Assembly (NCBI GenBank): GCA_021432655.1
Contig: MU271232.1
Span: 100,361-131,755, forward strand
DNA: 31,395 nucleotides
Source: Atractiella rhizophila
Lineage: Eukaryota
Direction: 5' to 3'
Shown here: positions 2,212 to 30,735 of the stretch, one piece after another
Numbering within the stretch: position 1 is the stretch's first letter
Layout: every line of letters begins with the position of its first letter
Position numbers and translations under genes: made by a program
The notes under the pieces: model-generated
Seen by the model: the letters and a program-made list of their open reading frames with translations, nothing else
The model's database searches: none
What the model was told of the DNA's origin: nothing

Positions 2212-5137
2212 ATGGCTTCGTCTACCCCCTCGACATCTCGCACCAACTCTTCCACCAGCACCTCAACCTTAGATGGGGAAGAAAGTAAGAAGAAATACCC
2301 TATTGCAAGGTCGGCGTATCTTCGAGCTTTCCACTCACTCCTCGATCCCATACTCGCGAACGAGACTCACTTACTGTCACATGAGGAGCTAGTTCTTGCA
2401 ACAAGGTGGGCTTTACTGCCTATATGTGGAAATCACGTAAACAGAGTCATAAAGGTGGAGATCATTGGCCCACGAAGCGAGATATCTTTTCGTCCGTTTA
2501 TGGCTCCGAACTCGTGTCACTCTCCCTGCCGGTTCTGCGTCAGATGGATTGGAGGTAGAAGATGCAAAGACTAATTGGTTTAGGACGAGTGATATAGAGG
2601 CAAAGTACGGAAGTCAATTCGGGATGGAGCTTGAGGACGGAGGGAAGGAATTGGATATCCATCAGGCGCTAAAGGAACTCAAGGAAGCAGGTGAAGATAT
2701 TATTATTGACCTGGCAGAAGAAAAATTGCAGACAGTTCTTTGCATGCTTAGTCTGACAGAGCTGAGGGTATGTCCTTTTTCATGGCAGTGGGTTTGGAAG
2801 AGGAGCGATGGTTTGGCGTGATCGCGAAAAGATTTACGAGAATTTTGTCTCAGCTCTGGTTATACTTGCAGTTCCAACATTTCTTTCTGAAGTGCGAAGC
2901 TCTTATTGACACTTGTGCTCTGTGATGATGTAGGCACTAGCAAAAGACCTTCGAATAGCTAATCCTGGATCTACAGTACGTCTTGCCTCTTCGTGTGCGA
3001 TGTCTTACGTGAAATTGCAGACGGAAAAGATAATATCAAGTCTCATGCGTTCTTCGAGCGATCAAAGCACATTGTCATTCAGTCCCGTTCTCTCCCCTGC
3101 ATCCGCGAACAAAGCAAATGACAAAGGGAAAGGGAGGGAAGTTTCTACCTCAGCCCGTTCCCTTTCCCTCAATTTTGACGCCAAAGGAATAAAGCGAACT
3201 GGATGTTCTATCGTCCTTCGAAAGGCTCTTAACATCATTGGACCGTGCATCCGACTCTCGATGCAAATAATCAACCTTTTCTCTCGTATCCATCTCATTC
3301 ACAATCGCTCCACATCTCTTCCTTCACAAACCTCACCCAAGGACTCAATGACTCCTTCACTACTTCAACACTTTCACAAGCTTCATTTTCCTCCATACCG
3401 CGTTTGCCGGTCTTCACATTCCATCTTCAGGAGCCGAGAACAGCTTCTGGAGTATGAAGCTGCTCTGAGAGAGGTGAGAAGGCTGGAAGAGCTGCTGGGA
3501 GAGGAAAATGGGTGGGGAGATGATTGGCGGCAGATCAAGAAACGAAAGGAGGAGGAGGGTTGGAAGGAGAAAAAGTTGAAAGAAGGGAAGGAGATTTTTG
3601 ATCAAACTTATGAGAAGTGGAAAGATGTCATCAAGAGGGAAGACGCTAGACCTGTGGAAGAGAGTATTGGTTCGTTCGTTATTCTTTGCCTTGCAAGGAC
3701 AATTAAGCAACTAGAGTTGTTGATAGGGGTGTCCAACCTGCAGTACTACCATCTCCGGTTCCAACCAGGTCACCCTCTTACACGGATCCTCTACAAATGC
3801 GAGCAAGCCATCCTTTCACCTCTGAAGCTCCATTCGCTCTCTGTGGCTGTTCTCCGGGACCTTCTCTCTCAGCGCCACTTCCGGCGCGGAAAGCGTGGCG
3901 CATGGTACGAACGACTCGCCCTGATACTTATGACGTACTTTGGAAATTCTAATAAGAATGATGAGGCTGGAGTGCGGTTGAAGAGGAAGAAACGGGAGGA
4001 AGCATTACACGTTTTGAAAGAAGGATTACAGGATCCAGACACCCACGTTATTTATCGAAACGCACTCGAGAAGAGAAAGAAACGACTAGAAAAGCTTCTG
4101 GGTATCGAGTGCGAGAATGACGAAGAGGAACATGCGGAGCTAAGAGAAGCGTGCCAGAGAACTTTCAAAGGTGAACGCATTATCTCGGAAAAGACGAAGG
4201 AGTTAGCAGAGAAAAAGGCGAAGGAAGGCGAGGAAGTCAATATCTCAAACATTGGCAAGTCTGTATGGAGGATGTGTGACGGCGGTGAGGGGAGCGTGGA
4301 GGAGTTAGCTTTGGAGGGATACAAGAAGAAAGGCTGGAAAGGGTAGCTGCCCATTCCTTACTGAAGGTTTAGAGAGTTTACCCTGATTTACTCAGATTTC
4401 ATTCCGAAAACGGCATACTGACTACAGTATTTGCCATGCTCTTCTTCGACATCATCTTCGAAGATATTGAGGGAGTTTTCGAGACCTCCTTCCAGTCAGC
4501 TCCCTTGGATCTGGCGACTGATGCCTTCTGTATCAGTATGCACTTCATTCGAGCTGTTAGAGGCCGCTGAACGTTCTCCATAGCTCGTGCCGAATCGATA
4601 TCGAAGCGTTTGGCTGAGATTGGTCGCGGAGAGGCAGCTGTCATTCTTGAAGAGGTAGATGACCGAGAAAGAGAGAAGAAGACTTGCTGTGTTGGACTGC
4701 ATTGGGATCGCTATACCAAACAGGACTTGCTGGAAGTAGTGCAGGTAACGTTATCCTTTCGCTCGACCGCACAGCGCTCTGAACGTTGAAGGAAGTGCTT
4801 GGGGCCAAAAGCCTTAGTATGCATATGCAAGGTCTTTGCCGAAGAATGGGGCCATCGAGCGAGTGGCATGCCTGATCTCTGCTTATGGAAACCTGAAAAA
4901 GGCAAGCTCAAATTTGCAGAGGTCAAAGGTCCCGGCGACCGCTTGTCGGATACCCAACGAATATGGATTGATCTTTTGATTGGTGCAGGAGTGGAGGTCG
5001 AGTTGTGCAAAGTGATTGAGTTTGACCAGGAGGACGAAGACAAGAGCGTCAGCAAAGCGAAAAAGGCGAGAAAGAGAGCTAGGAAACAAGAAGAGCAAGA
5101 GGAGGAGCTAGAGCCTGTTGTTATTGTCCTCGATTAG
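2212..5137 (+). CDS. FAN1: Fanconi-associated nuclease 1 (VRR-NUC domain)
   Basis: Motifs RYLFVRLWLR, RGKRGAWYERLALIL, SVEELALEGY, WKGFHSENG, FETSFQSAPLDL and catalytic SGMPDLCLW...FAEVKGPGDRLSDTQRIW (PD-(D/E)xK); multiple GT-AG introns; stop TAG 5135-5137. Confidence 0.95.
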
Positions 5138-5598: not shown

Positions 5599-7124
5599 CT
5601 AGCGCTCCTTCGGTTTAGAAGATTGAATCGATTTGAAGTGAGGACGAGCCGTCTCAATCATGTGCGTAAGGACCCTTGGTTCTATACGCCGTTAATAATG
5701 CTCATCACGGTTCAAGCGGTAGAAAGGCAGAAGGACGAACCAACTGCATTTTCGCACACAATCAGAACATGGGTATCTTCCGTGAACGCATCCATCACGA
5801 GCGTGAAATCTGGTTCGCAAATCTGTATTGACTCAAACTGCGTACGTGCGCCTTTCCTGCTCTCCCACTCTATTATACACTCGACAAACAGAAAGCGTGA
5901 CAGGACTTACACACATGAATATTTGAAAGTCTTGATGACGGAACTAATGCGCTCGTACAATCTCTTTTGTTGTTGATCATGATCTTGCTCCTGCGCTCCA
6001 CCTTCGATGAAAGTACTGCCTTTTGATCTGTTGCTGACGCTGCAAACGACCAGCCAGGTATTGCTTTCGAAAATCACGACCTCGGTTGCGTTACAAGAGC
6101 GAGAGAAAATCATTAGGTCTTTCTTGATCCTCTCCAGATTGGGTATCAACGTTGAAACGATCATAGACCATGCCTAATGGTAACAAACGTCTGTTAGATA
6201 TCGTTCCTCGCGAAGGAAAGGGAGAAAATAATTACAGAATACAAGGAGTCATCCCAAATGGTCGTACAGAATGCACCCATAAAGAACTGCTTCAGATCTA
6301 CCCTCCGTCGTCCTCTCGACGCCTCATTCACTGAGCCAGCACTTCTCCGGTTGGCCAACTTTTGCACGGCCCTAGCTTCGACGTGATGTAGAGCTTCGTA
6401 AGTCCATTCCTCCACCATCCTCCGCTTAGACTCTGCTACTTCGGCACTGACGAGGTCCTTCTTGTGCATCAAGATGAAGACTTTCGGTCCATCGATTGTG
6501 ATTGGACCTGAGCTTGGAAGAGATGTGACCTCCTTGATACGCGGAGACACGAGAGCGCGTGAGCGCGGGCTAGAGCTCGTGGGAGTGAGAGTGGAATGTG
6601 ATGCAGTGGGAGGTGAGTCCTTGAATAGCTTCTCGAGGCATTGGAGGTAGAATTCTTTGTCGGTAGTCTCGAGAAAACGAGATTCGAGGTCGAAAATGTA
6701 AATGAGTGCAGAGACGAGCTTGAAGACGTTGTGACTATCAGTCGTCAGAAAGGATGTCATGATGTCTAACCACCCAAAGTAATGCTCAATATACATCTTC
6801 ATCAGGCTCCTACAGAGTTCCAGGTGCACAAAGGAGCAATGCGTACCTTCTTGCCCACCACAATCCCATACATCTAGTTTGACATCCGCCAGAAACCTCA
6901 CACCAGTATTACTGACTCCAACAGTCGGGCCAAACGTCCCCAGATCCTGAGCAACTCTCGAATCGAATATGAGTGTTTTCATCGACGACTTCCCAGCTCC
7001 TCCTTTCCCCATTAAAATGACCTTGATGTGCACAAACGCGAGATCAACAATGCATCCCAATGCCATCCGTTCAGCATCCCGATAACATCTTGGACAACGA
7101 AAGACATACCTTACGCTTAGACAT
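5599..7124 (-). CDS. GTR1: Gtr1/RagA-family small GTPase, divergent, with low-complexity insertions
   Basis: MSKRK|VILMGKGGAGKSSM (P-loop), WDCGGQ (G3), HKKD (G4), TTIWDDSLY (G5), roadblock region AWSMIVSTLIPN...EVVIFE...YERISSVIKTFKYSC; first exon 7124-7110; stop TAG 5601-5599. Confidence 0.85.
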
Positions 7125-8269
7125 GATTGCCGTTACAGACAATCGCGAAAGCACCCACAAGAGTATGGCACCCTCGAACTCCAAATGCCAAATGTGGATG
7201 CGTTCAGCAACACGATGACTCGTGTTTGCTCAGATTTGGGTGACGTGCCGAACCGCGAACCGGAATCGCGCACGATGAGTCTGGATGCTCTATATATTTC
7301 CTTCGTCCTCGTGGAGTGCAAAGAATCGCCGTTTTTGAGAATTCCCTTCACTATAAAAGCGCGCTGTCCTTCAGTCAAGGTGTCTCCCTCTTTCAAAGTA
7401 TTCAGTCTTAGAATTTTCTTCACGTGCACATATTCTGGAGCTGGGTACTGGAAACAATCAATGCATTATGAGGCGCGTTAGTGAGGAGGGATGGGAATGA
7501 AATGGAGCCATGCCCTGGAAAATGAGACTGAGGAAATCAGGATGAACAGCAATGCACTTAAGCAAGTAGGCCGTTTCTTGCTCGATTTGCAGAACTGTTT
7601 GTTCGTTCTGCTGGGTTATTTGTACTCTAGTGGACAGGATATCCTGCTCTTCTCCAGTGGCTTCATTCAATAGCAGGACTGCCACATTTGATTTGCTTTC
7701 GCTGTTTCCCTGTCAATCGCGACATCCACGCATTCTCCTCATCCCTTGACGCGGGGGTAAAACTAACGTCCGCGATTAGCTGCGTGCTTCGCTTCTTATC
7801 AGCGAACCATCTATCGTCTCATCCATCCATCTGATAGAACCCGAAAAGCTGGATTATCCCCTATCCTGACCTTAGAGAGGATAAGGATGCAGCAAAAGTG
7901 CGAACTTTGAAAGAGGCGAGCCAGGTGAAGCGTGTAATTCGGGGAGGTACGCGATGTGGACGCGTGAACGCGCCATATCTCCTACGCCTGAGCAACAGCT
8001 GCAAGGATTTCCCTTAGCCCTCATGTCCAACTCGCAGTTTACGAAAGTATACCTATTTGTGTCAATGCAAAGGATCTTCTGCGGCCCACGGATGGGTCTT
8101 GGTCTTGAGACCTCCTGCTGAGCTACGGCGAATGTAGCAATAATGCCAATAGATTGTTGGAGGCACGCCATGCTTATCGCGAATCGCGCTCATTCGAACG
8201 GTGTTTTCGAAATCCAACTTCGGGACACTCCTCGCTCATCAAAGCTTCTTATCAGAAAAAAACCCTGCC

Positions 8270-8375: not shown

Positions 8376-11300
8376 ATGTCAGCACAAGCAGCAAGAGACG
8401 CTGAAGACGTTCAGGCCAACATCGGCAACCTACCTGTCCTACCGGGTGGTAATTTGAACGACTTCATTGACGAGAAGCGATCTTTCGACGATGAAAAGAA
8501 GGATGCAGAAATCGCAGGCAGCGTCAAGATCCAGTGAGTAGACATAGGTCGGACCAGATTCCAGACTGAGCTAATTGTTTGAAGTGGCGACGATGTAAAC
8601 GACGCCAAAGGCTCAGATGACGATCCGGACTATGCCTCTCTCCCTCAAATCGTGCGAGAATTGGTCGAGTACGCAAAACATCTATAATCCATGATTCTCT
8701 TCCTTCATAATAACTTGATCTATGCAGTTTCGAAGACGACGAAACCGCTCCAGTGTTAACATGGCGTTTCTTCTTACTCTCCACAATTTTCACCGCGCTC
8801 GGAGCTTGGCTTCAACAAATGGGCTTTTTCCGAACCACCTACGTCCCCTACAGCATCTACTTTGTGCAGATTGCAAGTCTGTACCTTGGAAGATTGCTTG
8901 CTGCTAGCCTTCCTGTGAAGACTATTGGCTTTGGACGCTTTTCCTTTGAACTCAACCCAGGACCGTTCAGCGTTAAGGAGCATGTCGCCGTCGTTCTTGC
9001 CGCGAACACTGGAGGGGTTCGTTTTCATTGCTCGTTCTTCTCACCATTCTACGATACTAAATTCAATCATCTAGACGAATAATCTTGGAGATTATGTCTT
9101 GGCACCTTTGGATGTGAGTGCTGCTCCACTGAAAAGTTGATGATCTGACTCAAAATATGATTAATTCAAGATTTTTTACGGCAAAGTGAGGCTCTTACTT
9201 AACATTCTTTACGTGGACCTATCTGATATCAAAACAGCCTATGAATGGGTGGATTGCAATAATTTTCATGATCAGCGCTGTGTTCATTGGTTTCTCCCTG
9301 GCCTCCCTAGCTCGCGTGTTCTTGATCGGTAGGTTGTTCTATTATACACACAGGCAAACTGACAGTGCAAACAGAGAATCCCGTCACACTCTTCCCCCTG
9401 ACGCTGCAGCAAGTTTCAGTTTTCAAAGCAATGCGTCTTTCCGCTGAGAGCGGCAGCAACACCGCGAAGAAACAGATGAGAGTCTTCTGGTGGTCTATTC
9501 TGGCCGTCTTCCTTTACCAGACCCTTCCGGAATACGTACGAATCCCGTTTACTCAAATTATTTTGCTTGACGTTGTTTCGTTTCTTCAGGCTGCTCCATT
9601 CCTTTCGTCCCTCGCTTTCCTTTGTTGGGTGACAAAAAATCCAACGGTAAACGACTCTGCTTCCATCCTTCAGCCTAAAAGGCTAATGTGCTTTACAGGC
9701 ACAATTCTTGAGTTCTGGACTGGGAGGTGCAGGAATTTTGAATATTACCCTGGACTGGTCGAACATTGTTAGTCCTACTCAATTTTGAGCTCACTGGTGG
9801 TAGCCTCTCAACGGTGCCTATTTAGGGATCTACCTTCATCTATTATCCATACTGGGCCTTGGTCAACATATTCGTAGCCAGCGTCATTGGAGCATGGGTA
9901 CGTGAAATTTGAAAGGATGACCCGAAAAAGTTCTCATGTTTCCCTAGATCCTCTACCCCGTTGGAAAATTGACTGGTGCATGGCAAAGCGACCTCTATCC
10001 CATCAATTCACAAGCTCTGAGGCTCGCCAATGGCTCTTCGTATCCGACGGCTCGCTTGCTGAACGCTGACTACACTCTCAACGAAGAACTATTCGAGCAG
10101 TTTGGTCCTCCAAGAATGTCTGCAAACTTGCGATGGGCCTACTTCTTCAGCTGTTTGTGTCACATGTTCATCTAAATACCTTTCATTCTGACTGTGTTCC
10201 AGACGTCGCTTACATTGGAGCGTTTCTCTCCTGCGCTCTATTCGAGGGTCCAGCTATTGTCAGGAGTCTAAGGGCCGCATGGCGAGGAGATGCAGTCTAC
10301 AACGTGAGCAGTAACAGTCCAGGTGGATCAACTCCTTATGTTCTAGTAGAATATCCTCACAAAAATGATCCGAAAGTACCCTCAAGTTCCCATCTGGTGG
10401 AATATTGCCCTTTTCGCCGGATCCTTCTTTGCTCTCCTCGGACTTGTGCTCAAGAAGGATATCCTGTACATGCCAGCACGTAGTCTCTAGTATTTCTCCA
10501 TATATTCGCTAATGCTCTCGGACCAGATCTACAGTTATTTCGTTGGACTTGTCTTCGGTATCCTCATTGTCATTCCCATGGGGTGAACTCTCTTTTTGCA
10601 CATTCACCAGCACAAACTCACGTCAATCACAGTTACATCTACGCCATTTCAGGGTATCAAGTTCCAGTAGGATGTAAGCATTTCTGCCAACTAACTTCAG
10701 ATGTAACCACTGATTGTACACTTTCAGACTTTAACGAATTGTTCTACGGTTACCTTATCGATCTCGGAGGATCACGTCACCCTGTTGGATCTCTCTCCTA
10801 CCGTGTCATCTCCGGACAGTGTTGGTACGAGGTAAGATTTGGCACTGTAATCGACAATCCATCGCTAATACTAATGTTCTCGCAAGGCACAAGCAATGGT
10901 CAGCTCTCCCTTTTTTTATCAGAAGGATGAATATAACCGGACTTCCTGTAGTTGAGCGACATGAAGTTGGGTTACTACTTCCATATTCCACGTTCGTCTG
11001 TCCGAACTGAGCACCATTACTATTCTTATAACGCCTATCGCAGCTCGAGCGACCCTCCTCGCGCAGATCTGGGGAATTTGTGTTGGTGTTCCGGTCAATT
11101 ACGCGTACGTCACATATTGATACATCATGGCCTGCTTGCTGAATTTCAGCTAGGACTATATTATGGGTGTGCAACACCAAGCGCGGCTATTTGGAAGGAT
11201 CCATTGCTGATCCTAACAGGCAGTGTATGTGACTTTGCATCGTTGTTGATCGCCATTGACGAGAATTGTAGGGACTGGTCAAACCGTCATCTCCTTGAAC

Positions 11301-13738: not shown

Positions 13739-13901
13739 ATTCGTGGTGGGCGATGCAGACTAAAGAAGAGACTAGAGACACTACGTCGCAGTCGCAGTGA
13801 GTCAGTCCCGACGCCAACTGACGAAGAGCAACAACGATGGCGACTCCCTCCGCTCAGCTCCGCAACCTCACGCCCTGCCCACCCCCAGCCTCCTCCCCGC
13901 C

Positions 13902-15529
13902 ATGCCGCACGTGCAGCCCCCGACGCCCGCCACGCCCGTGTCGAGGAACTCCATTTTTTCAACCGCCTTCGGGTCTGGCTTCACTGGGCCACACGTCTCC
14001 TCGCCCCCCTCCTCAGTCAGCGGCTCCAGTCCGTCCTCCTCCCCCCCGTCGAGCGAGAAGCATCTCTCGCCCCTCGCCAATCGCAAGGCGTACTCGCACA
14101 GCGACCTCAGGACCGCCATCAACAACCTCTCCTTGGCCAGCGCAGCAAAGAAGGAGAAACACTTCGCTGCGCTCGGATTCGGCTCTCCCGAGTTCCAACA
14201 CGGCTTCAGACCTCCGTCGCGTCTCCCTACCCTCGTCACCATCAGGGACTCAACTCCCCCGCCCAGTCCGAGTCCGACCACTTCGACGTTCAGGAATGCG
14301 GAGGCGACGACGGAAGACGCCGAGTCGATACCTGGCTTCGTCTTCTACCCTTCATCCCTCGCTTCCGAACTGTCCGTATCCCCGCCAGAGAGCCCTACGG
14401 AGATGGACGGGATGGAGCAGGGATTTGGGAGGGGAGCAGAGTGGGAATTCGAAGTGGTAAAGGTGCTGGGCGAGGGGAGCTTTTCGAAAGTTGTGGGCGC
14501 GAGGAAGAGGAGGAAAGGGAGCGGGAAGGAGGGAGAAATGGTCGCGATCAAGCTGATCAAGAAGAGGATGTGGCAAGAGAACGAACGGATGAAGGTGTCC
14601 GTCGTCCGTGAATTGGAGGTCTTGAAGGTATGCTGTCTTTTAAACGTGAGAGGGACTGGGTTCAATCTCTGTCTGCGTCGATAGCATATCCATCATCCTT
14701 CTCTCATCTCGCTCTCGGCGTCCTTTGACACTAGACACCACAATTGCCTCGTCCTCGAGTATGCGGAGGGCGGAGAACTTCTCGACTTCCTCCTCGATCA
14801 CCACAAGGAGATGTCCGCAGGATTAGCGCGTCGCATATTCTGCGAACTCGCCTCCGTGCTCGGATGGATGCACAGTATCTTCCTAGTGCATCGCGACATC
14901 AAGCTCGAGAGTAAGCATTCCTCATCCTGCCATCCTATCCTACCCACTCACGTTGCGTTGCGTCAGACGTCCTCTTGACCGCCCGTCCGTTCCCTCTCCA
15001 CGAACCCTTGCCAGACGAGACCCTACCGCCTCTCCCCGAACGCTTCGTCAAGCTGACCGACTTTGGACTCTCCCGCTTCATCGACCCCACCAATCCGATG
15101 CTCCAGACCCGCTGTGGATCAGAAGAGTACGCCGCTCCGGAGCTCATCATGTCGAAATCGTACGACGGACGGCAAACGGATTCCTGGGCCCTAGGCGTCG
15201 TCCTCTACGCCATCCTCACCGGCTCCCTCCCCTTCGCTCGACGGAAAGGAGAGGGAAAGAAACATCTGTTCCGCATCGCCAAAGGCGAGTTCGAGTGGCC
15301 CTCCGACCCTTCCTCGGAAGGAGCGAGACTTTGTAGTCCCGAGGCGAAGGAGGTCGTGAATAGGCTGCTCGTCAGGGACCCGTCGAAGAGAGCTACGGTG
15401 GCCGATTTGAGGTTTATGGATTGGATGAAGGGTTGGGGTGGACCGAAGAGGTTGACGTTTCGAGATGCGTGGATGAAGAGGGGGAGCGAGGAGGTCGATC
15501 GGGCGGTTAGAGCGGAGGTTCCTTTTTAG
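13902..15529 (+). CDS. Ser/Thr protein kinase, CAMK-like, with a long S/P-rich N-terminus
   Basis: LGEGSFSKV, VAIK, RELEVLK|HIHHP, LEYAEGGEL, HRDIKLENVLL, KLTDFGLS, TRCGSEEYAAPE, DSWALGVVLY; introns about 14628-14684 and 14910-14967. First in-frame ATG is 13902; true start may be 13837 (see findings). Confidence 0.93.
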
Positions 15530-15914: not shown

Positions 15915-18651
15915 CTACACGTATTCGATCTTGAAAGCCCAAGCATCGTCCACCTCGCTCAACTCCTCCTCGTTTCCGAAAACCTCAAACGTCCCATCCG
16001 GAGTCCACTGCCACTGGAGCGCGGTCTGGTTCTTCGTTGGACCGAGGAAGGTGACTTTGTCTCCCTTCTTCGCTGGCACAGGAAGCTTCGTCCGGATGGT
16101 ACCGTTGACGGGGTACGTCAGGGAGGTGATGTAGAACGCGTCCTCCTTCGTCGTCTACTTGCACATTCAGTGTTGTTCATGATGAATGGGAGCGTGTGAC
16201 ACTTACGAAACGTAAGTCTTCATCTTGCGAGGCGTAGAACCACCATTGTGTGTCGTATATAGCTTCTCCTCTGGTAGGAATATTCTGTCAGCTTTTTGCC
16301 GCCATCTTAGAATGGGATTGCTAACGCGAATTTGAGCCACGATCCTACTTTCAACAACGAGTTCTTAGAAGGAGGCACGATAGTTCCATTAGCCGTTGGA
16401 CCTGTACAATACTTCAATCTCTTGTCACGCAACGGAGAATACATCACATACCAACATCGATCAGGTAGTTCCCGCCTTTGGAGACGATATCGACGAGAGA
16501 ATGAAGAACGTAAGTAGCATTCCGGTAGTTTGCATCTAGGTATCAAATCAGCCGGCCCAACAAGGTAACGAAGCAGGTTTAGAGCCTGTCAGAGGCTTAC
16601 CAGGGGTGTCGCGATTGTACCCATAAGAGTATGGGTCGCTACCTTCGCTCGATTCCCACTTCCTCGTCTTCAGATGGGTGGTGGCAGAGTATTCAGGGTT
16701 CTATTCCGACACCTCAGAGAAATCATGGATGGTGAGGGGAAAGCGCCCAACGCCAAAGCAAAAGAAGTGGCACCCCAACCTGCCGTTGCCAACAACTGGC
16801 CGACCCGCCTTGCCGCCCAAGTGGAACAATTCGGGGCCGAAAAACAATAAGTTATATCGGTACTGTTACAGCAAGACTCACCGATTTCAGGATAAACAGT
16901 AGGTCCTCCAACATCGCACCTGTTAAACTGGTCACGCTGGGGAGATCATGGTCAAGGAGCTTTCTGACCAAAGAATATCGGTGTTGTATTTGTAAAACAG
17001 AGCCTCCATTTGAGGTTTCATGATATCTTCAAGAAAGTCGTCTACTTTGACGTAGCCAGTGTATGGCTCGAGCTCCGAGTTGTTATAGGCATTATGAGCG
17101 AGACCTGCAGTAAAATGAGGAACATTCACATGTAGAATTATAGCAAAGCTTACCCCCAGCAAAACCGGTTCCTGTCTCTAACGTAAGCTTTATACTGATA
17201 AAGGTAGAAATCTCACGTTGCAGAATATCGTACCCAGGAGTTCCAGGCACGCTTGACCTGCGATGATATAGATCGTCACCTGTCCCGATTGAGTGGCGTC
17301 CAACTGGGCAGAGAAGAAACAAACCTCCGCCGGCGTGTCCATATTTTGCAAAAGAAGGATTAAACCATTCCGGGAGCGAGAAGTATGTCTGTAACATAAT
17401 TAGTTTGTGAATATCAAGCACCGAACAACGAACACCGATTTTGATCTCTGGGCGATACTTCTTCGTAGCCTCGACAATTTCTCCTAGCAAATCGCGCCTG
17501 CAGGATTCTGCTTCAGATGTCGTAACAATCGGTGGAAATGTCTCACTTAGGACCATAGTTCAACGAATTGCGGTTGGAGTTGCCAGTGGTGTCGAACAGC
17601 GAGAATCCATCGTGATCTAGGGATATCTTCAGTCACAGCAGCTGTCAAGTCTTCTTGACCCACGTTTAGTGGTGAGGACCTAGACAGGTCTTAGCAAACT
17701 AGTGGCTGGTGAATGAAAATACTGACGTAGTACTTTGCGCCAATATCAGACACGAAATCAACAAAGTCCTTAGCGTTGAACTCGGAAGCAGTGAAGTGAG
17801 GAAAGAAATCGTCGTATAGAAAATCCTCGCCATAGACCTCACGATGGTGTGTCCAAACAGCGGATGATGAATTGGCAGGATTGTGTTGCCCTATAGAACA
17901 ATAATTGTCATTGCCTGTCTAAATTTTCGGCAGGGTATGCTTACAGTACCAATACCTGTTGGAACAGTCAAGCAATGCGGGACATTAGGAGAGACCACAT
18001 TACCATTCTGCATACTGGGTCCCTGAAACTGTCCAAGCAGGCACGGAGTAGATTCCTGTTCCTCAAGTTAATAAATGAGGCCATGGGTGCCGGGTATTTA
18101 CCCCAGTGCACAAACAACCCAAATTTGGCAGAATCAAACCATTCTGCGCTCTCGTGCGTCTTCAACGAGTCATCTCCAACGTAGTAGTCCGGGATTCCAG
18201 CCGTGATCTTCCAATTCTTACTGATTTGCTTCTCATTAGCGAGGATCGTGACACCATCCAGCGTTTTGCCTGCCTTCACACCATTACTGACGATTCCTAC
18301 AATGACCCGCACTTGGTCTCCTCCTCGAAGTCGCTTCAGGCTGCCTGGAATTACAGTCTTGATGTTTGGGTGCGACAAAGTGAAAGAGGTTGGATTAACG
18401 ATCCACCGGTCGGCGGAGTTGTTGGATGGTGCGAGATTTGTAATGGTCAGCTCAACAAGTTGTGCTTTCTCTTTCCCGTGCAACCTGAATCTAGAGAGTG
18501 GACAATTTTCAGTAAATGTGACCTAAGTAGCAAAAAATAAGCTGACTTGGTGGTACTTCGAGCGTTTTGCACATGAAGAACAGGCCCGTTTGAGTGATTG
18601 GAAATGTCTGACGAGATTAACGTTGCTGCAAACATGTGAATGTTCACCGTG
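15915..18651 (-). CDS. GH29 alpha-L-fucosidase, main part; runs into the gap, with its N-terminus in the mirrored segment
   Basis: HESAEWFDSAKFGLFVHWG, YYVLTTKHHDGFSLFD, YFSLPEWFNP, nucleophile motif DILWCD, KWESSEGSDPYSYGYN, GPTANGTI, EAIYDTQW; ends WAFKIEYV* (TAG 15917-15915). Confidence 0.93.
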
Positions 18652-20731: not shown

Positions 20732-22165
20732 GGAAAACCTTCTCGTTGTTTGCGTGGGCCTTCTCATCAGAAAGCGCTTTCTGGATGATAGCATTGATGA
20801 GAGGCGATATTTCCTAGTCCATTATTAATTTATTTGAATCATAGCAATAAGAGACCTATTTATACAAACCTTCATGGCTTCTTTGACCGGATTTTTCCAC
20901 GAAAGGCCTAAAGTAGCAACAGGATCGCTCGACAATCTCCTGGCCGTCTCATACTCAGCACGATTGAAAGCCTGAAAGAATCCCCCAGCTTTGATCATTT
21001 GTTCGTCCTTATGTTCCTCATCCTTCGAAGGCGGGAACAGTTCTGCTAAGGACTCCTGAACCACCAATATCCGTCACGCTCTATAATGCTACCCATGAGG
21101 AAAGATTCTTACCACGGACCAGCCAAACAGGAATTCCGTCGCCGAGTCCAGGGTGAAGCGACTGGCGAGATCCTGGAAATCGAACGCAGTGGTACGATGG
21201 AGCTGTGGTTGAGGAGGGATGGATGAAGAGGTCGAGAGAGGCGAGAGAGAGAGGCGGCTGATTGTCGAGAGGATCCCTTGTGACTGCAGCGAAGACGTCA
21301 ATCTGTCCAGCGGCTCAGGTAGGAGAGAAACAAGCTCACGTGCTTGTCAAACACATCACAGTTTGAGATTTCTTCCTTGGAGAAGAAGGGTCGGGTCAAA
21401 GTCCTGTGAATGTGGATGAGTTGAAGGATATGCTGTCAGGTAGTGAACTATGTACCTGTGGTGTTTCCACTGAGCCCCTGTAGCATCATCACTCTCAATC
21501 CTCACGTAGATATAAAGAGGGAGCTCACCGTCCGAGTTAAAAATTCCCACGCCTTGTGGAAGATATCACTGCCAAACACATTGTGAAGAAAACCAGGCTG
21601 CACACCTAGAAAATCACGAGCTGCTGCCGTGAAGACATCTCCTTTGGGGAAATTGGTCCAGTTCTTTCCGGTGAGAATGTGCTTAAAAACCTGGGGGATC
21701 AGGCATGACACAATGAAATGAGTGAGTCAACTCTGTGGAGTTTGAATCGCAACGGATGCCTACCTCAGGATCTTCAGTCATGCCAACGAAGACGCCAAAA
21801 ACATTCAAGTTGATAGTCCTGCTGCCCATCCTTTCCTTGATGGCTGAACTGAACTGACCTGGGATAGGATCGGAGAGAAAACGTCTTGGACCAACGAGAG
21901 GGAAGTCCATGTTGAACGGTAACCAACCTTGAGCTTTTGGAATCAGGGAGGCATCATAAAGACGCGCTGCGCGCCGAGAGAAATAATATTGATTCCAGAG
22001 GAGGTGGATCTTGAGATTGATAGCTCCCAAAAGGAGAGAAGTCAGGAGTATGAGCGCACCACCGTTGACACCGCTTAGCGAAGCAGGAAGAGTGGGGAGC
22101 AAAAACTTTTGCTCCAAACAGATGAGAATCAGATGGACCAAAATGATCCGTTGGAGGCGAGACAT
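20732..22165 (-). CDS. Cytochrome P450, CYP63/CYP52-like, N-terminal half
   Basis: Hydrophobic N-terminal anchor, TEDPE|VFKHIL, FLG|GIFNSDG|AQWKHHRTLTRPFF, FDFQDLASRFTLDSATEFLFG, EISPLINAIIQKAL...KVF; continues in the mirrored segment from 19025. Confidence 0.93.
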
Positions 22166-22637: not shown

Positions 22638-25216
22638 ATGGCAGACCCTCTCCACTCTATCAACGGCGTTGCGCCAGCAACCCTGCTTGATGACCAGGAA
22701 ACATTCGAGGTGAAGGGAAGCAAGAATTCGAAACACACCATCAAAAGGACGGGTGACCATTACATTTGTTCCTGTAAGCATTGCCAACAGTATTTCAGAC
22801 GTAAATACTGGCTGACAGCATTCGCAAACAAGGTCCGGCATGGAAGATGCAGAAAGGTACCTCCATTCACATTCAAACAACTTGGGATCTGAATAAATAT
22901 TTATTTTCAGGTAAACTGCCGAACGAAAGGACTTGTAAACATCTCAAGCAGGTCCTCTCTGAAGCCTACGAAGAAGAACGTCTCAAGCAATACGCCGATA
23001 CGCATGCTCAGCGTCCGCCGGAGAAGAACGTTACCTCCAAACCTGCCTCTAAAGCGAAACCTGCCTCAAATCTGGTACAACGAAGCCAGTCTCAAAGACC
23101 ACTCGCACCACGCGCGGGAAAGTAAAGACTGAAGAGGACGAGGGAGAGGCTGAAGAAGAAGAGGAAGCTCCGAAGAAACCTACCTCGAGAACCACGAGAG
23201 CGACTCGCGGGAAAGCAAAAGTAGAAGAGGAAGAAGAAGAAGGCAGAATGGCCGCCGAAGCGGTCAAGGTCTAAGCCCCCATCGAAGTCAGAAAGCAAAC
23301 CTCCTTCAAAGTCGTCTAAACCTGCTTCAAAGACCGCGGCCACTCGAGTCCCGCGTGGGAAAACGCCAAAAGTCGAAGAAGAAGAGGAGCAGGCGGAAGA
23401 AGCGGCTGATGAGGCGATGGAAGTCGAAGAGGAGGATGGGGAAGATGATCCTGTGTGGAACATCAACGGCGTAAAGCCTTTGAAGAAGCTTAAGGATCAG
23501 GAATTTGTTGAAGTTGAAGGCTCTGGCTCGTCCAAATATAAAGTAAAGAGGATCAACGATCATTACAGCTGCACCTGCCCTGCATGGGCATTTTTGAAGG
23601 GTATCAATGTGGACTGTCGCTCATGCAAGCATTGTAAAGCCGTCTTAGGCGAAGAGTGGGTCGTGTTTCTGCTCCGTTTTACCTGACGGATGGCGCTGAA
23701 CATTTTTGTGGTGGGTTAAAGATACGAGAAAGTGCGATTGGAAGCGAAGGGAGTCGAGGTACCGACCTCGCCTGTGAAAGGGAAAGGGAAGAGGAAAGCT
23801 GCTGATTCGGATTCGCCATCGAAAAAGAAGAAAAAAACAAACGATGACGGGGACGACGACGATGACAGCGTTACTGTGCAGGTCTTGTTGGCCAATAAAT
23901 TTGATTTAGAGGGAAAACAAGACCCCACTGGTTGGTGGATTTCTGAAAAGCGTGAGTACTTTAGCTTCCCTTCCTTAGAATTGATTTCAAATCTTACGTT
24001 CAAACAGTCGACGGCCTGCGTTGCTTCTGGGATGGTAAATCTAAGTTACTCATAGACTGGGAAATAAGTTTGCTGCTCCCGACTGGTTTAAAGAGCGTAC
24101 GTTTTCTCAAATCTTACCGAGGAGTATGCAATCGACGGTGAACACGTATAGAACTCCCTCAAGGTACGACTCTGGATGGAGAGCTGTGGCACTCACGTGG
24201 AGGCTTCAATGAAGCTACTTCCATTGTCAGGTCGGGAGCTTCCAAGCGCTGGAACGAAATCAGATTCCATGGTCGGTGTTTGCATTGATGAGTCCTCTCG
24301 AGCTGCAAGCTGACTCTGTCTAATAGTGTTCGATGTACCATCTGAAGGAAGCTTATCATTCGAAGAACGAGTCGCATTTCTGGAGAAAACATTTCACAAC
24401 TCTCCCTCAGTCGCGGCACCTGTCCCCGTGGACGAAGACGAGGAAGAGTCTCAGACCACGCATGAGATCATCGGAAAAGGAACCGGGCTGGTCGACATTC
24501 ACGATGAGAGTGAACAAGGGAATAAAACTAAGAAAGCAGGGGTGGTGGTGGATCTAGTTCAACACACAAAGTGCGAGGGGAAAGATCACCTTCTCAGGGC
24601 TTTGAAGAGGGTTGAACAGCTTGGAGGTGAAGGGTTCGTCTCCTTCTCTTATGGTGGCTGGAGCGCTGAATTGACGCTGCATTAGGCTGATGCTGAGGAA
24701 ACCTGGATCTAAATATGAAGGACGGCGATCGTCCACACTTTTGAAAGTCAAGACCTTCTATGAAGCTGATGCCGAAGTTATTGGTCACGTCAACGGAAAG
24801 GTGTGCATTTTTTACAAAGGTTTTTCTAATTAACATTGCTGTATAGGGAAAGTATGCAGGAATGACAGGCTCCTTGAAATGTAAGATGGAATCCGGACAG
24901 GAATTCCAGGTTGGCTCTGGAATGAACGATGATCTGCGAAAGAAACCTCCCAAGGTCCGCATAACCTGTTCTCTCGTTTTCAGAAAAGGCTTACCGAGAA
25001 ATGCATAGATTGGAACCATTATCAATTACAGATTCCAGGAGATCACAAAGGTGTGTCGTGCTTCTTCACCCTTATATCACAGCAATGACAGCATAATAGG
25101 ATGGCGTTCCGAGATTCCCCACGTTCCTTGGGATTAGAATTGATATGAAGAAACCCAAAGACTACGTCTTTCCTGCGAAAAAGTCTTCCAACCAGAAGAA
25201 CGACGACTCGGATTGA
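22638..25216 (+). CDS. Minimal bacterial/viral-type ATP-dependent DNA ligase with two N-terminal SWIM zinc fingers; three apparent frameshifts
   Basis: SWIM1 YICSCPAWKMQKGKLPNERTCKH and SWIM2 YSCTCPAWAFLKGINVDCRSCKH; motif I WISEKLDGLR, III LDGELW, IIIa FHVFD, IV GGEGLMLR, V RSSTLLKVK, OB fold ending GVPRFPTFLGIR; stop TGA 25214-25216. Confidence 0.92.
23036..23400 (+). repeat. Coding repeat in the ligase linker: three KPxSK/R..TR..RGKxKxEEEE units
   Basis: KPVSKTTRTTRGKVKTEEDE, KPTSRTTRATRGKAKVEEEE, KPASKTAATRVPRGKTPKVEEEEE. Confidence 0.75.
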
Positions 25217-25650: not shown

Positions 25651-27998
25651 TCACTTGTGCCTTCGTTGATGCCTGATTTTCGCGTCCTTACGAGAAAACT
25701 TGCCGCCGCAGACCTCGCATATCCATTCGGGCTTTTCAGCAGCGTGCAATGTCGCCTTATGCCTGTCGAGATCGTAAGGTCTACAGAATCAATGTCAGTT
25801 CCTGGTCAATGGGCAGAGGAAACAGGACGCAGACGTACCTCCTAAAGTGAGTCCCACATATCTGTCCGTTCGGCAATCTGACATCGCAGATGATCGCGCC
25901 AACAGGTGCTGACTTGGAAGTTCCTTCTCCAGCTTTCGATCTCTTCGTAGGACGCGACGTTCCTCCTTTAGCAGTCCGACCTCTTCTCGAACTTCCGCCA
26001 TCATATTCCTCCTCCTCCTCCTCCTCTTCATCAAAATCGGGATCGGCATCCGCGTCCTCATTATTCTCATCCTCATCATCCATCTCTGCTGCCGTTCGTT
26101 TCTTTGGCTGATTGAGCCACGACAAATCTTCGACGGGTTGTTCTCGGCGAGACGACGGAGCAGCTCGAGAGCTGGACGGCGTACGCGGGGGACGGGATTG
26201 GTGGGGAGGATCTGGGGCAGGGGCAGGTTGAACCGGCGAAGTGTGCTGTTCTCCTCGTTCCCCCTCCGCTTGCTCCTCAGCACCTTCCACGTCTCCCACC
26301 GCATCCGACTCTCCCATTTCAATATCTCCCTCCCAATCTTGCTCAACCACGCTATACTGACCCGCCTTCGTCTTCTTCATCCTCTTCCCCCTTGGTGTGG
26401 ACTTTGGAGTCCCCTTTGGAGTCCCCTTGCCTCTAGCTGTCGAAGTCGATGAAGGGGTTCCCAGCCTTCCACCCCAAAGATCTGGATCGATCTCCTCCCT
26501 CCTCGCTTCCGCATGCTCCTCCTCCTCCGCACCATCGCTGCTCTCCACAATTGAAGGAGTATCCAGCGCTTTCAGATCCGCCTCTTCCTCCTCCTCATTC
26601 TGCTCTTCTTCCCTCTCAATCGTCGAGAAGCTCGAAGCCGTATCCGCCGTCCCGTTACTGGAGAAGCTGCTTTTATCCTGCTTCTCCCCATTGTTAGGTC
26701 CTCCGCTCTTATCTTCCACCATCTCGGTTGGCATCGGGTCAGGGGACTGAGAATAAACTCTTTGTCGTGGGCTTTTGTCTCTGCTTCGTGACCCAGATCT
26801 CGAAGTTGGGGGGCCAAGAAACAGCCGAAGGAGGCATCGTTAGGAAGTCTTTCCTCTCCCCATCTTCTTTCGTGCCAATGACATCCTCCTCCTTCTCTTC
26901 CTTCTCTGATTTCTTCCCCTTCCCCTTCCCTTTCCCCTTGTTCAGAAGATGGTCGTACCTCGAGCTCGGCATGGGTGCGAAGAGTTTACCCACAATACGG
27001 TCGTGCCCTTCGTTTTCGCGAGTCACGTCGTCATAATCCACGAAAGCTTCTTTGGGAGAGACGGTGCGACGTTTCATTGCTTCCTCCTGTTCACGAGTGA
27101 TGGAGGACAGGACAATGCTTGCCGGAGAACTGGGGAGGGACGCAGCGGAGGTCGTGGGCACGGAACGATCGACTACGAAAGGGAAGGATGGGTATGGAGA
27201 AAGAGGAAGAGAGGAGGACCGACCTCCATGCCCGTCCACGACTTCCCCGTTGCTGATGATTGTGGGTTCGTACGAAAAGGAGGATAGCAGGGGTGACTTG
27301 AGTCGGGGCTGTCCGTGCGAGATCTTGTCCGCCAACAGTTGGAGAGCGGTGGGAGTCATCATTCTTCTGCCCCTCGCTTGACTCGTCATCTGTGTCGGAG
27401 TCATCGATTGCTCTCGCACCTCACTTTCCACATCGGAAGCTGCGTAAGTGGAAGGCGTGAACGTGCGAGGGGACGAGAGGGGATCGATGAAATGGTTGAA
27501 AGTTGGCTCGGGACGGAGAAGCGGAGCTGGAAAGACAGGGAAGACAGGGACGAGCCTGCAGGGACGTTGATTGTGTTGAGCTGAAGTTGAGGGGGTCTGT
27601 TGATTTGTTTAGGGATGGGCTGCTGAAAGGTGAACGAAGCGGGCATCGGGTCGTAGACTGTATTTGTGAATGAGTATGACTGTTGAGGAAGGGGTTGGAG
27701 TTCTTGAGGCTCGGCAACATCGGAGGCTACCGAAGAAGCGGAATGATCAGATATCATGGAGGAGGGCGTCGAGCCATCGGTGCATAGGGATTGATACGCC
27801 GTCGGCGGGGACATGAAGTCTCCACCGAAGCCTGGCAACATGACATCATTGTCAGTTCCGATCCCCATCTCACACCAGTCTTCTCGCTCAAGATGACGAA
27901 AACGTGAGCACTCACCTTCAGGATACACATCTTGTTCCCTTTGACCTTTTCCGAACCCTTGTTGTTGAAAAATAGTAAAAATCTCCCGCTCCCGCCAT
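25651..27998 (-). CDS. RPN4: Rpn4-like C2H2 zinc-finger transcription factor; three apparent frameshifts
   Basis: C-terminal fingers ICDVRLPNGQICGTHFRRPYDLDRHKATLH and ICEVCGGKFSRKDAKIRHQRRHK* match the Rpn4 RxYDLxRH...FSRxDA signature; long acidic and S/P-rich N-terminal region; start uncertain, possibly within the gap. Confidence 0.75.
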
Positions 27999-28116
27999 AC
28001 TTTCCTTTCCCTTGTGCTGTGAAGACTGGTAGTAAGGGCAATCAACTAGTTCTTGAGCGTCCTGATGGATTTTCAAGCAGTTTTCGTTGACGTGGAAGCA
28101 GAAAACTGGGTCTGTC

Positions 28117-28673: not shown

Positions 28674-29628
28674 TGTGGGTGCCGAAAGTCCTTTTATGCT
28701 TAGGATGGCTTCAAGCTTCAAGGGGAGTCTGGCCGGCTTCTCGAAGGGTCGGGTAGCTTCGCCGCACTTCGCTTGGCCGAAGGGAAGGCGAACTCGGGTG
28801 CCTGCAATCAGCTTTTTATCTGAAGTGCCCCTACACGTCCCTCGCTGCTGCGTCGATTACGCGTCTTGCAAGTCGCGAAGACACTCCCAAAGACTCGAAT
28901 CGAGACCAACCCGTGGGCTTCGTGTAGCATCTCCGTCCGGGGTTTTGCTTTAGTCACGGAACTACGCATTTGGAGCACCAAGGCTGAGCTTAGTCTAGGT
29001 TGGCACGTTTCGCTTAAGCGGTGAGGGTGCTGTGTTGCTCAAGATTTTATAAGCCTCTGGTTGCTGCTACGTGGTCAGAAACGATTTAGAAATTTGGCAT
29101 TTGGATTGGTGAACTCGCGGGTTGAAGAATTTGGGGAAACAAGTAAGCGTTTCGTTTCCTAACTCGACACGTTGCAGTTCCATCTCCATCCCACTTTCGT
29201 TGTTGTTCCTCAGCGCATCAATTGAGGATGTATTATGCTTAAGAGAGGGATAAAGGGATCGATTTCTCTTGAGGGAGACTTATAGGACCTTGTTATGAGA
29301 GCTGTTCAGAAAAAAGTCATCGAACGGAGCAAAATGGATCCCCTTCAGTGGAGTGGGAGAGTGGTCTATAAGCTCACCCTCTGAGAATGCTTCAAACGTC
29401 AACTTGTGGATTAGAGATTGGTGTTTTCCAAATTTCTGTGATGTTATGCCAGCTTGAACAATTTCCGAAGAATACTTGCAGGTGTTGTGAGATCCTCGTT
29501 TCTTCTCGTTCACAGTCTGATGTCGATGAGCCACCATCAACTTCAGTCATTCCACTTTCATTTGATTTCTAACTCTAGAACACCACTAATCCTGTGTTTT
29601 TCTGCAGCCGTTCACATCAATAGTTATT

Positions 29629-30735
29629 ATGCGAAACCTACAACCGATCCCAGCCTTCCTTCTCCTTCTCTCCCTCATCCCCGTTGCCTTCTCTTCCGTC
29701 GGTGACCGCTCCATCGGCTACCGAAAATGTCACTACGACTGCGAGCGGTCCTGCCGAGACACACGCTTCCCTCGACAAGCGAAGATTCCACGGTTCTGGA
29801 GCTGCGACGATGATTGTCATTACGAGTGTCAGCAAAAGATGACCGAGATAGCTTTGATCTGGAAGAACCACGAGAGGGCCGGTCAGATCGTGGTCCAGGA
29901 GGATCACAAAATCGAAGGCCTGCCGCTGGGACGAATGACCCAGTTCTATGGCAAGTGGCCACTCAAGAGATGGCGCTTCGTTCAGGAACCCATGTCCACC
30001 TTGTTCTCGATTGGGAACCTCCTCGTCCACATCGCGGCTTTGATGAGGCTCAGGAGGACCTTGCCGGCGAGCAGCGAGAGCTTGAGGAGGCTCAGGAACA
30101 CGTATATCGGATTGAGCTACGTGGGAATCAACACTTGGGTCTGGTCCATCGTCTTCCACACCCGCGACACACGACGGACGGAGAGGCTCGACTACTTCTC
30201 TGCTTCCCTCGGAACCATCTACGCCTTCTACCTCTGCGTCAGCCGAACGAACCGATTCCACTTCCGCTCATCCCAACGAGTCGCCAACCTCTGGAAACTC
30301 GCCTGTCTCGTCCTCTTCGGAGTCCACACCTCCATCCTCACTTTCGCGCACCGATTCCCGTACGGATACAACATGAAGTTCAACCTCATCGTCGCCGGCC
30401 TCACCCTCGCTCGATACGTTTGGTGGTACCTCAGCCCCGCCGAAGACAAGAAGTTCTCCCTATACTCCAGACCCCGCTCCTCGCCCATGACTCCCGCCCC
30501 TCCTTCGCCTCTACCTCCCCTCCTCGTCCTCGCCGCCCTCACAGGTCTGGAGATGCTCGAATTCCAACCTTGGCCAACGAAACAAAGGCTTTTTGATGCC
30601 CATTCCCTGTGGCATCTTAGCACGATTCCAGTCGTCTGGTGGTGGGCTAGGTATTTGGAGAAGGATGCGGAGTGGGAATGGAGGTGGGAGGAAACGGAAG
30701 GCGGCGTGAGGGGACTGAGCAGGAGATCGAAATGA
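29629..30735 (+). CDS. PER1: Per1/PGAP3 GPI lipid-remodelling protein, intronless
   Basis: Signal peptide, SVGDR...C..C...C, WSCDDDCHYEC, QFYGKWP, QEPMSTLFS, WSIVFHTRD, TERLDYF, DAHSLWH. Confidence 0.95.
   Translation: MRNLQPIPAFLLLLSLIPVAFSSVGDRSIGYRKCHYDCERSCRDTRFPRQAKIPRFWSCDDDCHYECQQKMTEIALIWKNHERAGQIVVQEDHKIEGLPLGRMTQFYGKWPLKRWRFVQEPMSTLFSIGNLLVHIAALMRLRRTLPASSESLRRLRNTYIGLSYVGINTWVWSIVFHTRDTRRTERLDYFSASLGTIYAFYLCVSRTNRFHFRSSQRVANLWKLACLVLFGVHTSILTFAHRFPYGYNMKFNLIVAGLTLARYVWWYLSPAEDKKFSLYSRPRSSPMTPAPPSPLPPLLVLAALTGLEMLEFQPWPTKQRLFDAHSLWHLSTIPVVWWWARYLEKDAEWEWRWEETEGGVRGLSRRSK

What the first reader, a model, noticed from the sequence alone, without database searches (positions are those of the whole stretch)
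22638..25216. Intron-bearing fungal gene for a bacterial-type minimal DNA ligase with a duplicated SWIM module
Seen: two copies of an (H/W)xINGVxP...EVxGS..K(H/Y)x(I/V)KR..DHYxCxCPAW...CKH...L.ExYE module precede a compact adenylation+OB ligase that lacks the DNA-binding domain and BRCT repeats of Lig1/Lig4, and carries a roughly 50-aa acidic insert between motifs IIIa and IV. Established: SEKLDGxR..WDG, DGELW and GVPRFP..L.IR wording is that of minimal bacterial/viral/kinetoplastid-type ATP ligases; CxCxnCxH is the SWIM signature. Inference: an ancient horizontally acquired repair ligase in which tandem SWIM fingers may act as damage sensors or partner adaptors, suggesting a little-studied fungal repair route. 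I cannot tell from sequence alone how novel the two-SWIM architecture is.
Basis: partly seen in the sequence, partly recalled or inferred. Interest (0 to 1): 0.7.

Follow-up and report, generated by a model that had tools for sequence, protein, structure and literature searches.

The report
Fungal ligase E with twin SWIMs
This is a real, spliced fungal gene for a compact DNA-sealing enzyme of a family already known in many fungi, carrying two copies of a small zinc-finger module whose job is untested and which is also doubled or tripled in many mushroom-forming fungi.

Summary
The gene is real: ATG 22638 to stop 25216, 11 exons, with all 10 introns skipped in a public run's contigs. A second haplotig in the same assembly is intact (676 aa, two SWIM modules in one frame), and the shifts are probably assembly errors.

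The enzyme has a Lig E/K-type core (PRK09125 292 bits, cut-off 200; best solved-structure matches are Lig E), not Lig1/3/4. That family is already reported from fungi, and its link to WGR-bearing ligases of myxobacteria and planctomycetes is in print.

One SWIM before the core is the shared state (80 of 80 bacterial relatives). Two or three copies occur in 27 of 119 closest relatives, nearly all Agaricomycetes, and these do not form one clade (p-AU 2e-5), so copy number is labile. The ligase tree follows fungal taxonomy, so any transfer is ancient; its direction is not resolved.

Most likely it is a nuclear nick-sealing repair ligase whose tethered SWIMs add DNA or partner avidity; this is untested. 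I found no paper describing the SWIMs.

The parts
22638..25216 (+). Whole gene, 11 exons; the intact allele (haplotig G000:C208:52877-50293) encodes 676 aa
22638..22990 (+). SWIM module 1 (aa 1-80; C44-x-C46 ... C62-x-H64), coded by exons 22638-22773, 22833-22856 and the start of 22911-23655
   Evidence: introns 1 and 2 skipped in X3
22991..23449 (+). Low-complexity linker of about 150 aa (32 K/R, 35 D/E) with three TR..RGK.K.EEEE-like repeats
23067..23068 (+). Frameshift 1 of the window copy (one base short in an A run); absent from C208 and C1172
   Evidence: not visible (table cut); two X3 contigs abut at 23070/23071
23241..23242 (+). Frameshift 2 (one extra G); absent from C208, C1172 and runs X1, X2, X3
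23450..23747 (+). SWIM module 2 (aa 233-311; C274-x-C276 ... C292-x-H294); intron 3 (23656-23721) lies in its last helix
23789..23836 (+). Basic stretch KRK-x8-KKKKK, resembling a bipartite nuclear localisation signal (pattern recalled, not tested)
23880..24800 (+). Adenylation domain: motif I SEKLDG (K377, codon 23948-23950), Ia SRLG, III LDGELW (24172-24189), IIIa FHVFD, IV EGLMLR, V LLKVK
24052..24053 (+). Frameshift 3 (one base short, inside motif Ia); absent from C208 and runs X1, X2, X3
24392..24541 (+). Acidic insert between motifs IIIa and IV, predicted disordered (pLDDT 31-51); an insert here is shared with Pucciniomycotina relatives (spacing 65-100 aa)
24795..25140 (+). OB-2 domain (PF14743) with the lysine fork GKGKY and FQVGSGMND, ending in PRFPTF
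22774..25099 (+). Ten GT-AG introns: 22774-22832, 22857-22910, 23656-23721, 23952-24007, 24097-24151, 24272-24326, 24634-24685, 24801-24846, 24955-25008, 25051-25099
   Evidence: 10 of 10 skipped in X3 contigs; conserved in C208

Best explanation
The gene encodes a working, vertically inherited fungal member of the Lig E/K (NT + OB-2) ATP-dependent DNA ligases, of the SWIM-bearing intracellular branch shared with Myxococcota and Planctomycetota. Chemistry (inferred from motif conservation and from solved Lig E): K377 is adenylated by ATP, AMP passes to the 5' phosphate of a nick, and the two core domains clamp the DNA partly, using the GKGKY lysine fork instead of a DNA-binding domain. Role (inferred): a nuclear accessory nick-sealing repair ligase beside the genome's own Lig1- and Lig4-like genes. 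The SWIM module is a separate zinc-binding unit on a flexible tether that brings the enzyme to damaged DNA or to a repair partner. The second copy, on a 150-aa disordered linker, adds avidity and is dispensable. Shown here: gene structure, splicing, an intact allele, family placement and copy-number counts. Not shown: activity, location, or the SWIM ligand. The window's three frameshifts are most likely assembly errors (about 85%).
For: Family: PRK09125/NF006592 292 bits against a cut-off of 200, while dnl1 (TIGR00574) gives 29 against 218. The top three PDB sequence hits (E 3e-55 to 5e-45) are the three entries that the fold search titles as Lig E or minimal-type ligases (fold TM-target 0.90 to 6gdr). 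All catalytic motifs are invariant across 28 homologues. Intact allele, with 26 synonymous against 5 non-synonymous differences between haplotigs. Spliced transcript. The tree puts it with Microbotryomycetes (97/97) and splits fungi from bacteria (100/100). 80 of 80 bacterial relatives have one SWIM. Of 26 scanned, 20 carry WGR and 4 carry BRCT over cut-off; 4 of 5 chosen chytrid proteins carry PBZ. Eukaryotic Lig E is radiation-induced in rotifers and Mortierella, and depleting it from rotifer extracts reduces nick sealing (PMC10665377 passages). In the model, SWIM2 and the core are confident (pLDDT mostly 85-97) and the linker is not (<50). 84 of 119 relatives have only one module.
Against: No functional data exist here for any SWIM-bearing member. 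The SWIM module has no structural match that would point to its ligand. No single RNA contig spans SWIM1 and SWIM2: two contigs abut at 23070/23071. Runs X1-X3 differ from the window at many sites, so they do not test the window's own allele. The nuclear location rests on a recalled sequence pattern.
Confidence: 0.65

Rival explanations
1. The SWIM modules are protein- or poly(ADP-ribose)-binding adaptors, not DNA binders. They recruit the ligase to a PARP-marked or partner-marked break, as PBZ is proposed to do in rotifer Lig E, and tandem copies act cooperatively.
For: The module travels with WGR, BRCT and PBZ in ligases and occurs three times with a WGR in non-ligase P0123. The genome has PARP catalytic-domain matches over cut-off. 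Tandem PBZ domains are reported to bind PAR far more tightly than single ones (PMC6264785 passage).
Against: Chytrid proteins carry both PBZ and SWIM, which suggests different jobs. The module is highly conserved between bacteria and fungi, which suits a universal ligand such as DNA better than a lineage-specific partner (inference).
Confidence: 0.25
2. The window's allele is a real, recently broken copy in one nucleus of a heterozygous strain, and only the C208 allele works.
For: Three frameshifts, one inside motif Ia. The third is not a homopolymer change. No run laid is clearly from the same individual.
Against: Two of the three are run-length changes. Four more one-base extras break the next gene's frame, which is open for 950 codons in C208. 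There are 36 one-base indels in 24,215 aligned bases. The 26:5 synonymous excess speaks against long decay. No contig of X1-X3 carries shifts 2 or 3.
Confidence: 0.15
3. The extra SWIM is a neutral product of internal duplication in a repeat-rich linker, and single-SWIM forms work equally well.
For: Most relatives have one copy (84 of 119). Multi-copy proteins are scattered over the tree (10 changes among 34 rows; one clade rejected, p-AU 2.15e-5). One recent duplication is visible (P0006, 94% identical copies).
Against: Both copies here keep all four metal ligands, PAW and the flanking strands and helices at only 52% protein and 54% cDNA identity, so both have long been under selection. Repeated retention in many genera suggests a benefit.
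Confidence: 0.3
4. It is an organellar (mitochondrial) ligase, like kinetoplastid ligase K.
For: It has the same NT + OB-2 core as ligase K (PMC10665377 section 7). The mitochondrial role of ligase K is recalled, not from a call.
Against: The N-terminus is the folded SWIM module, with no basic presequence, and there is a lysine-rich stretch resembling a nuclear signal.
Confidence: 0.07

Closest known systems
Bacterial Lig E (Alteromonas 6gdr, Psychromonas 4d05, Neisseria 8u6x; PMC6144786)
   Same: Minimal adenylation + OB-2 core with no DNA-binding domain or latch; GKGK-aromatic lysine fork; PRK09125 over cut-off; best sequence and fold matches.
   Different: No periplasmic signal peptide; two N-terminal SWIM modules, long charged linkers, a 44-aa longer IIIa-IV loop, ten introns; the second Lig E motif is only partly kept (FQVGSGMND against F-basic-I-G-S-G-F-x-D).
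Eukaryotic Lig E / 'ligase K' of bdelloid rotifers, Mortierella, many fungi and protists (PMC10665377, PMC6264785)
   Same: Same two Pfam core domains, which those papers use to define the group; both papers report it in fungi; accessory zinc fingers on disordered linkers with variable copy number.
   Different: The accessory finger is SWIM-type and N-terminal, not PBZ; 'SWIM' occurs 0 times in the main text of either paper. Rotifer and Mortierella sequences were not in my trees.
NT-OB_2-WGR ligases of delta-proteobacteria and Planctomycetia and their linked 'mostly fungal' group (PMC7470946)
   Same: This is the group the protein falls in. The best bacterial relatives are Myxococcota, Planctomycetota and Obscuribacterales at 37-43% identity over SWIM plus core, mostly with WGR.
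   Different: [quoted passage not shown] Bacterial members have exactly one SWIM (80 of 80); the fungal protein lacks WGR.
Multi-SWIM ligases of Agaricomycetes in public databases (e.g. P0004, P0007, P0009, P0011)
   Same: Same architecture: two or three modules on long charged linkers before the same core.
   Different: Different subphylum; not one clade with this protein; none characterised in the papers I found.
Eukaryotic Lig1, Lig3, Lig4
   Same: Same catalytic motifs and chemistry.
   Different: No DNA_ligase_A_N, BRCT or PF04679-type OB domain; dnl1 score far below cut-off. The genome has separate PF04675-bearing ligase genes.

Membership tests
Lig E/K in the broad sense (PF01068 + PF14743) | Adenylation domain plus OB-2 domain | tested here: met
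   PF14743 101.7 bits (cut-off 28), PF01068 38.2 (cut-off 26.2)
Lig E/K in the broad sense (PF01068 + PF14743) | PRK09125 equivalog score | tested here: met
   292.3 bits against 200
Lig E/K in the broad sense (PF01068 + PF14743) | No helical DNA-binding domain | tested here: met
   No PF04675 in P0002 or P0001; model shows only SWIM, adenylation and OB parts
Lig E in the strict sense (proteobacterial) | G-K-G-K-aromatic lysine fork | tested here: met
   GKGKY at aa 587; motif from PMC6144786
Lig E in the strict sense (proteobacterial) | F-basic-I-G-S-G-F-x-D motif | tested here: inconclusive
   FQVGSGMND at aa 608: F, GSG and D kept, basic residue and second F not
Lig E in the strict sense (proteobacterial) | N-terminal periplasmic signal, no appended domains | tested here: not met
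   The N-terminus is a SWIM module, so I do not file it under strict Lig E
Lig E/K in the broad sense (PF01068 + PF14743) | ATP-dependent nick sealing | not testable with these tools
   All motifs intact; no assay
SWIM zinc finger | CxCx(n)CxH pattern after beta strands and before a helix | tested here: met
   CxC-x15-CxH in both copies; four ligands invariant in 34 rows; three strands then helices, pLDDT 86
SWIM zinc finger | Pfam PF04434 score over cut-off | tested here: inconclusive
   10.5 bits against 19.6 for SWIM2; homologue P0123 with three copies reaches 29.3; Atlas top hit is SWIM-type at 0.90
SWIM zinc finger | Structural match to a solved SWIM domain | tested here: inconclusive
   No informative match
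SWIM zinc finger | Zinc binding | not testable with these tools
   Inferred from the ligand pattern
Lig1/Lig3/Lig4 | DNA_ligase_A_N domain; dnl1 family score | tested here: not met
   (29.3 bits against 217.8)

The most novel reading that the evidence does not exclude
The roughly 70-residue SWIM module is an unrecognised strand-break (or PAR) sensing domain with no solved structural relative found. It defines an intracellular Lig E subfamily, and basidiomycetes have duplicated it several times independently, including once in this Pucciniomycotina lineage (0 of 18 named relatives have two). The enzyme would then be a third nuclear ligase filling the role of the Lig3 that fungi lost, in single-strand-break repair or Lig4-independent end joining.
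Probability: 0.3. Interest if true: 0.6.

Novelty: new member of a known kind. Interest (0 to 1): 0.35.

Why it matters
Basidiomycetes and chytrids carry an extra ATP ligase that budding and fission yeast lack (PMC6264785 passage), and I found no test of what it does in them. If its SWIM modules sense breaks, this would name a new damage-sensing domain and a Lig3-like repair route that could bear on stress tolerance and on gene targeting in mushrooms. The locus also shows an annotation trap. The public model of the intact allele (P0002) omits SWIM1, and the model of the window allele (P0302) splices around the frameshifts and loses motif Ia. Database counts of SWIM copies are therefore probably too low. 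On its own, this gene is one more member of a widespread group.

Tried and rejected
SWIM1 as a separate gene: rejected, since the frame is open through both modules in C208 and through the linker in C1172. Small introns as the cause of the frame changes: rejected, since they are one-base indels against the other haplotigs. Recent horizontal transfer or contamination: rejected (ten introns, spliced RNA, tree follows taxonomy). Two-SWIM layout as unique: rejected.

Fold searches with the SWIM model found nothing informative (best Z 2.3, no Foldseek hit at E<=0.001); this shows neither a new fold nor a difference. The SWIM-module tree (71 columns, 3 of 57 branches starred) could not tell whether SWIM1 arose in this lineage; its own partner ranked 32 of 222 by pairwise score. 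Rooting with four proteobacterial Lig E removed deep resolution (fungi one group in 28% of bootstrap trees), so donor and direction are open. Eukaryote monophyly including Pigoraptor was not rejected (p-AU 0.21).

The first genome-contig scan with a single protein found 0 relatives in 112 stretches. PF11411 rang nowhere, controls included, so the Lig4 label for C93 rests on recalled motifs. No RNA holder was listed as such; X3 is taken as RNA because it skips the introns. X4 (small share) was not used. No SWIM-SWIM complex prediction was obtained. No functional cluster was seen around the gene.

Eight literature searches listed no paper on SWIM-bearing ligases. I did not see figures or supplements, including the domain drawings of PMC10665377 Fig. 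2, which might show SWIM, and most subscription papers are not in the library.

Full report
Observation. Three-frame translation gave an 11-exon gene from ATG 22638 to TGA 25216 with ten GT-AG introns of 46-66 bases (intron 4 corrected to 23952-24007). Contigs of run X3 skip all 10 of them, so the gene is transcribed and spliced as modelled. Near-identical public proteins are named Atractiella rhizophila; its placement in Pucciniomycotina is my own knowledge.

Frameshifts. Read as written, the window's spliced sequence stops after 124 codons. The own genome holds the gene at three places, C53 (the window), C208 and C1172. Against C208 the window lacks one base after 23067, has one extra after 23241, and lacks one after 24052; C1172 agrees with C208 at the first two and has a gap over the third. 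C208 encodes an unbroken 676-aa protein with CxC-x15-CxH at 44-64 and 274-294. Runs X1, X2 and X3 all lack shifts 2 and 3 at full depth. Shift 1 is not in the shown part of that table, and two X3 contigs abut there without bridging it. Of 31 differing codons between the alleles, 26 are synonymous. The window contig differs from C208 by 36 one-base indels in 24,215 aligned bases, four of which break the next gene's frame, open for 950 codons in C208. I therefore read the shifts as consensus errors (about 85%). The runs differ from the window at many sites, so a real null allele is not excluded. The public models are both flawed: P0002 is aa 223-676 of the C208 product and omits SWIM1; P0302 has both modules but splices around the shifts and loses SRLG.

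Family. P0002 scores 292 bits on PRK09125 (cut-off 200) and 29 on dnl1 (cut-off 218), and carries PF01068 and PF14743 only. The best PDB matches by sequence and by fold (TM-target 0.90, rmsd 2.3 to 6gdr) are the bacterial Lig E structures; human Lig1, 3 and 4 come far lower. The Lig E lysine fork is present as GKGKY, and the second Lig E motif is partly kept. The genome has four other loci with PF04675 matches. By recalled motifs these are Lig1-like (C291, C182/C619) and Lig4-like (C93), so this ligase is an accessory one.

Distribution. The best 80 are mostly Myxococcota and Planctomycetota, with some Obscuribacterales, and match across SWIM and core; 80 of 80 have exactly one module. Of 26 scanned, 20 carry WGR and 4 BRCT over cut-off; 4 of 5 chosen chytrid proteins carry PBZ. 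Among the 120 best hits of the whole protein, 28 have two or three motif matches, a set biased towards multi-copy proteins. Ranking by the core alone gave 84 with one module, 24 with two, 3 with three and 8 with none among 119. By group this is 26 of 79 Agaricomycete-named, 0 of 18 Pucciniomycotina-named, 0 of 11 chytrid-named and 1 of 11 unnamed (groups assigned by me from genus names; the counting profile was built from these same families). Both searches listed only 120 of about 3,000 hits and only proteins of 249-795 aa. A search of 1.84 billion representatives with the module found 1,325 proteins. Among the 52 longer ones scanned, ligase and WGR domains were the commonest Pfam hits and many had none. 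Tandem copies also occur in non-ligases (P0123, P0251, P0188), and a PBZ-SWIM-ligase occurs in Pigoraptor.

Trees. On the ligase core (89 hand-picked rows, FastTree) the protein groups with Microbotryomycetes (99), and fungi and bacteria are separate (97, 98). A careful tree without distant outgroups (38 rows) gave 97/97 and 100/100 for the same splits. With four proteobacterial Lig E added, deep branches collapsed. So inheritance within fungi is vertical and older than the chytrid-Dikarya split, but the donor and direction are not shown. Multi-SWIM proteins do not form one clade (14 against 20 rows, p-AU 2.15e-5, at least 10 changes). That means repeated gain, repeated loss, or missed exons; the module tree cannot decide.

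Structure. The AlphaFold model of P0002 has a confident SWIM (three strands, then helices) and a confident core, joined by a linker of pLDDT under 50; the acidic insert is also low-confidence. An insert at that site is shared with Pucciniomycotina relatives (spacing 65-100 aa, against 50-57 in bacteria), so it looks like a lineage-specific loop.

Mechanism. Established for the family: three-step adenylation chemistry, and partial clamping of nicked DNA by basic OB residues (PMC6144786 passages); damage induction in rotifers and Mortierella, and a contribution to nick sealing in rotifer extracts (PMC10665377 passages and section 7). Inferred for this protein: a nuclear accessory repair ligase whose tethered SWIMs supply the targeting that a minimal core lacks, with the second copy adding avidity. 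DNA is my first guess for the ligand, because the module is conserved from bacteria to fungi. PAR or a protein partner is the main rival, since the module keeps company with WGR, BRCT and PBZ and the genome has PARP domains.

Literature. PMC6264785 (passages) reports ligase K in many fungi but not in Saccharomyces, Schizosaccharomycetes or Neurospora. PMC7470946 (passages) describes the delta-proteobacterial and planctomycete NT-OB_2-WGR cluster and its attached mostly fungal group. PMC2806865 (passages) notes the repeated loss of ligase III in fungi. 'SWIM' occurs 0 times in the main text of these three and of PMC10665377, and eight searches listed no paper on the architecture. Figures and supplements were not seen, and UniRef already names many relatives 'SWIM-type domain-containing'.

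Verdict. The enzyme family and its bacterial kinship are known, and the tandem SWIM layout is widespread but unstudied. New member of a known kind; interest 0.35.

Noticed in passing
L017:54-4425 and 17 other bacterial loci (L014, L023-L027, L029-L031, L035-L037, L041, L047, L048, L067, L084): In 18 of 80 bacterial loci a retron-type reverse transcriptase lies just upstream of the SWIM ligase on the same strand. In L017 the order is SWIM_XIII, RT_XIII (E 2.8e-152), a WGR protein, then the SWIM-LigE-WGR gene. The type XIII retron paper PMC7736814 has 0 occurrences of 'ligase'. The loci are mostly related myxobacteria (Kofleriaceae, Haliangiales), so this may be inherited gene order, but a ligase serving a type XIII retron is worth a test.
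   Followed up: partly
L101:801-1826: A 485-kb uncultured phage record encodes a SWIM ligase of the same architecture, in a 360-codon open frame.
   Followed up: no
window 25781-28116, minus strand: The neighbouring gene is broken in the window by four one-base extras (26808, 27468, 27530, 27976) but open for 950 codons in C208; no Pfam hit on the two window pieces scanned. Other apparent pseudogenes on this contig may be artefacts.
   Followed up: partly
window 2934-4346 (+), 6194-7132 (-), 8714-9772 (+), 13776-15529 (+), 17968-18522 (-), 29590-30735 (+): Ordinary neighbours by Pfam: FAN1-type nuclease, Gtr1/RagA GTPase, OPT transporter, protein kinase, alpha-L-fucosidase, Per1. No sign of a repair cluster.
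   Followed up: partly
P0123, P0251, P0188: Non-ligase proteins with tandem copies of the same module: A20 finger + three SWIM + WGR; two SWIM + long basic tail; cyclin + two SWIM.
   Followed up: no
P0257: The Pigoraptor PBZ-SWIM-ligase falls on the bacterial side of the fungi-bacteria split, which could be a separate transfer; grouping it with fungi is not rejected (p-AU 0.21).
   Followed up: partly
G000:C182:3440-4000 and C619:2523-3083: A second Lig1-like gene besides the one on C291 (label from recalled motifs).
   Followed up: no
window 20825-21346, minus strand: Short frames with wording that recalls a cytochrome P450 (recalled); no Pfam hit on the two pieces scanned.
   Followed up: no
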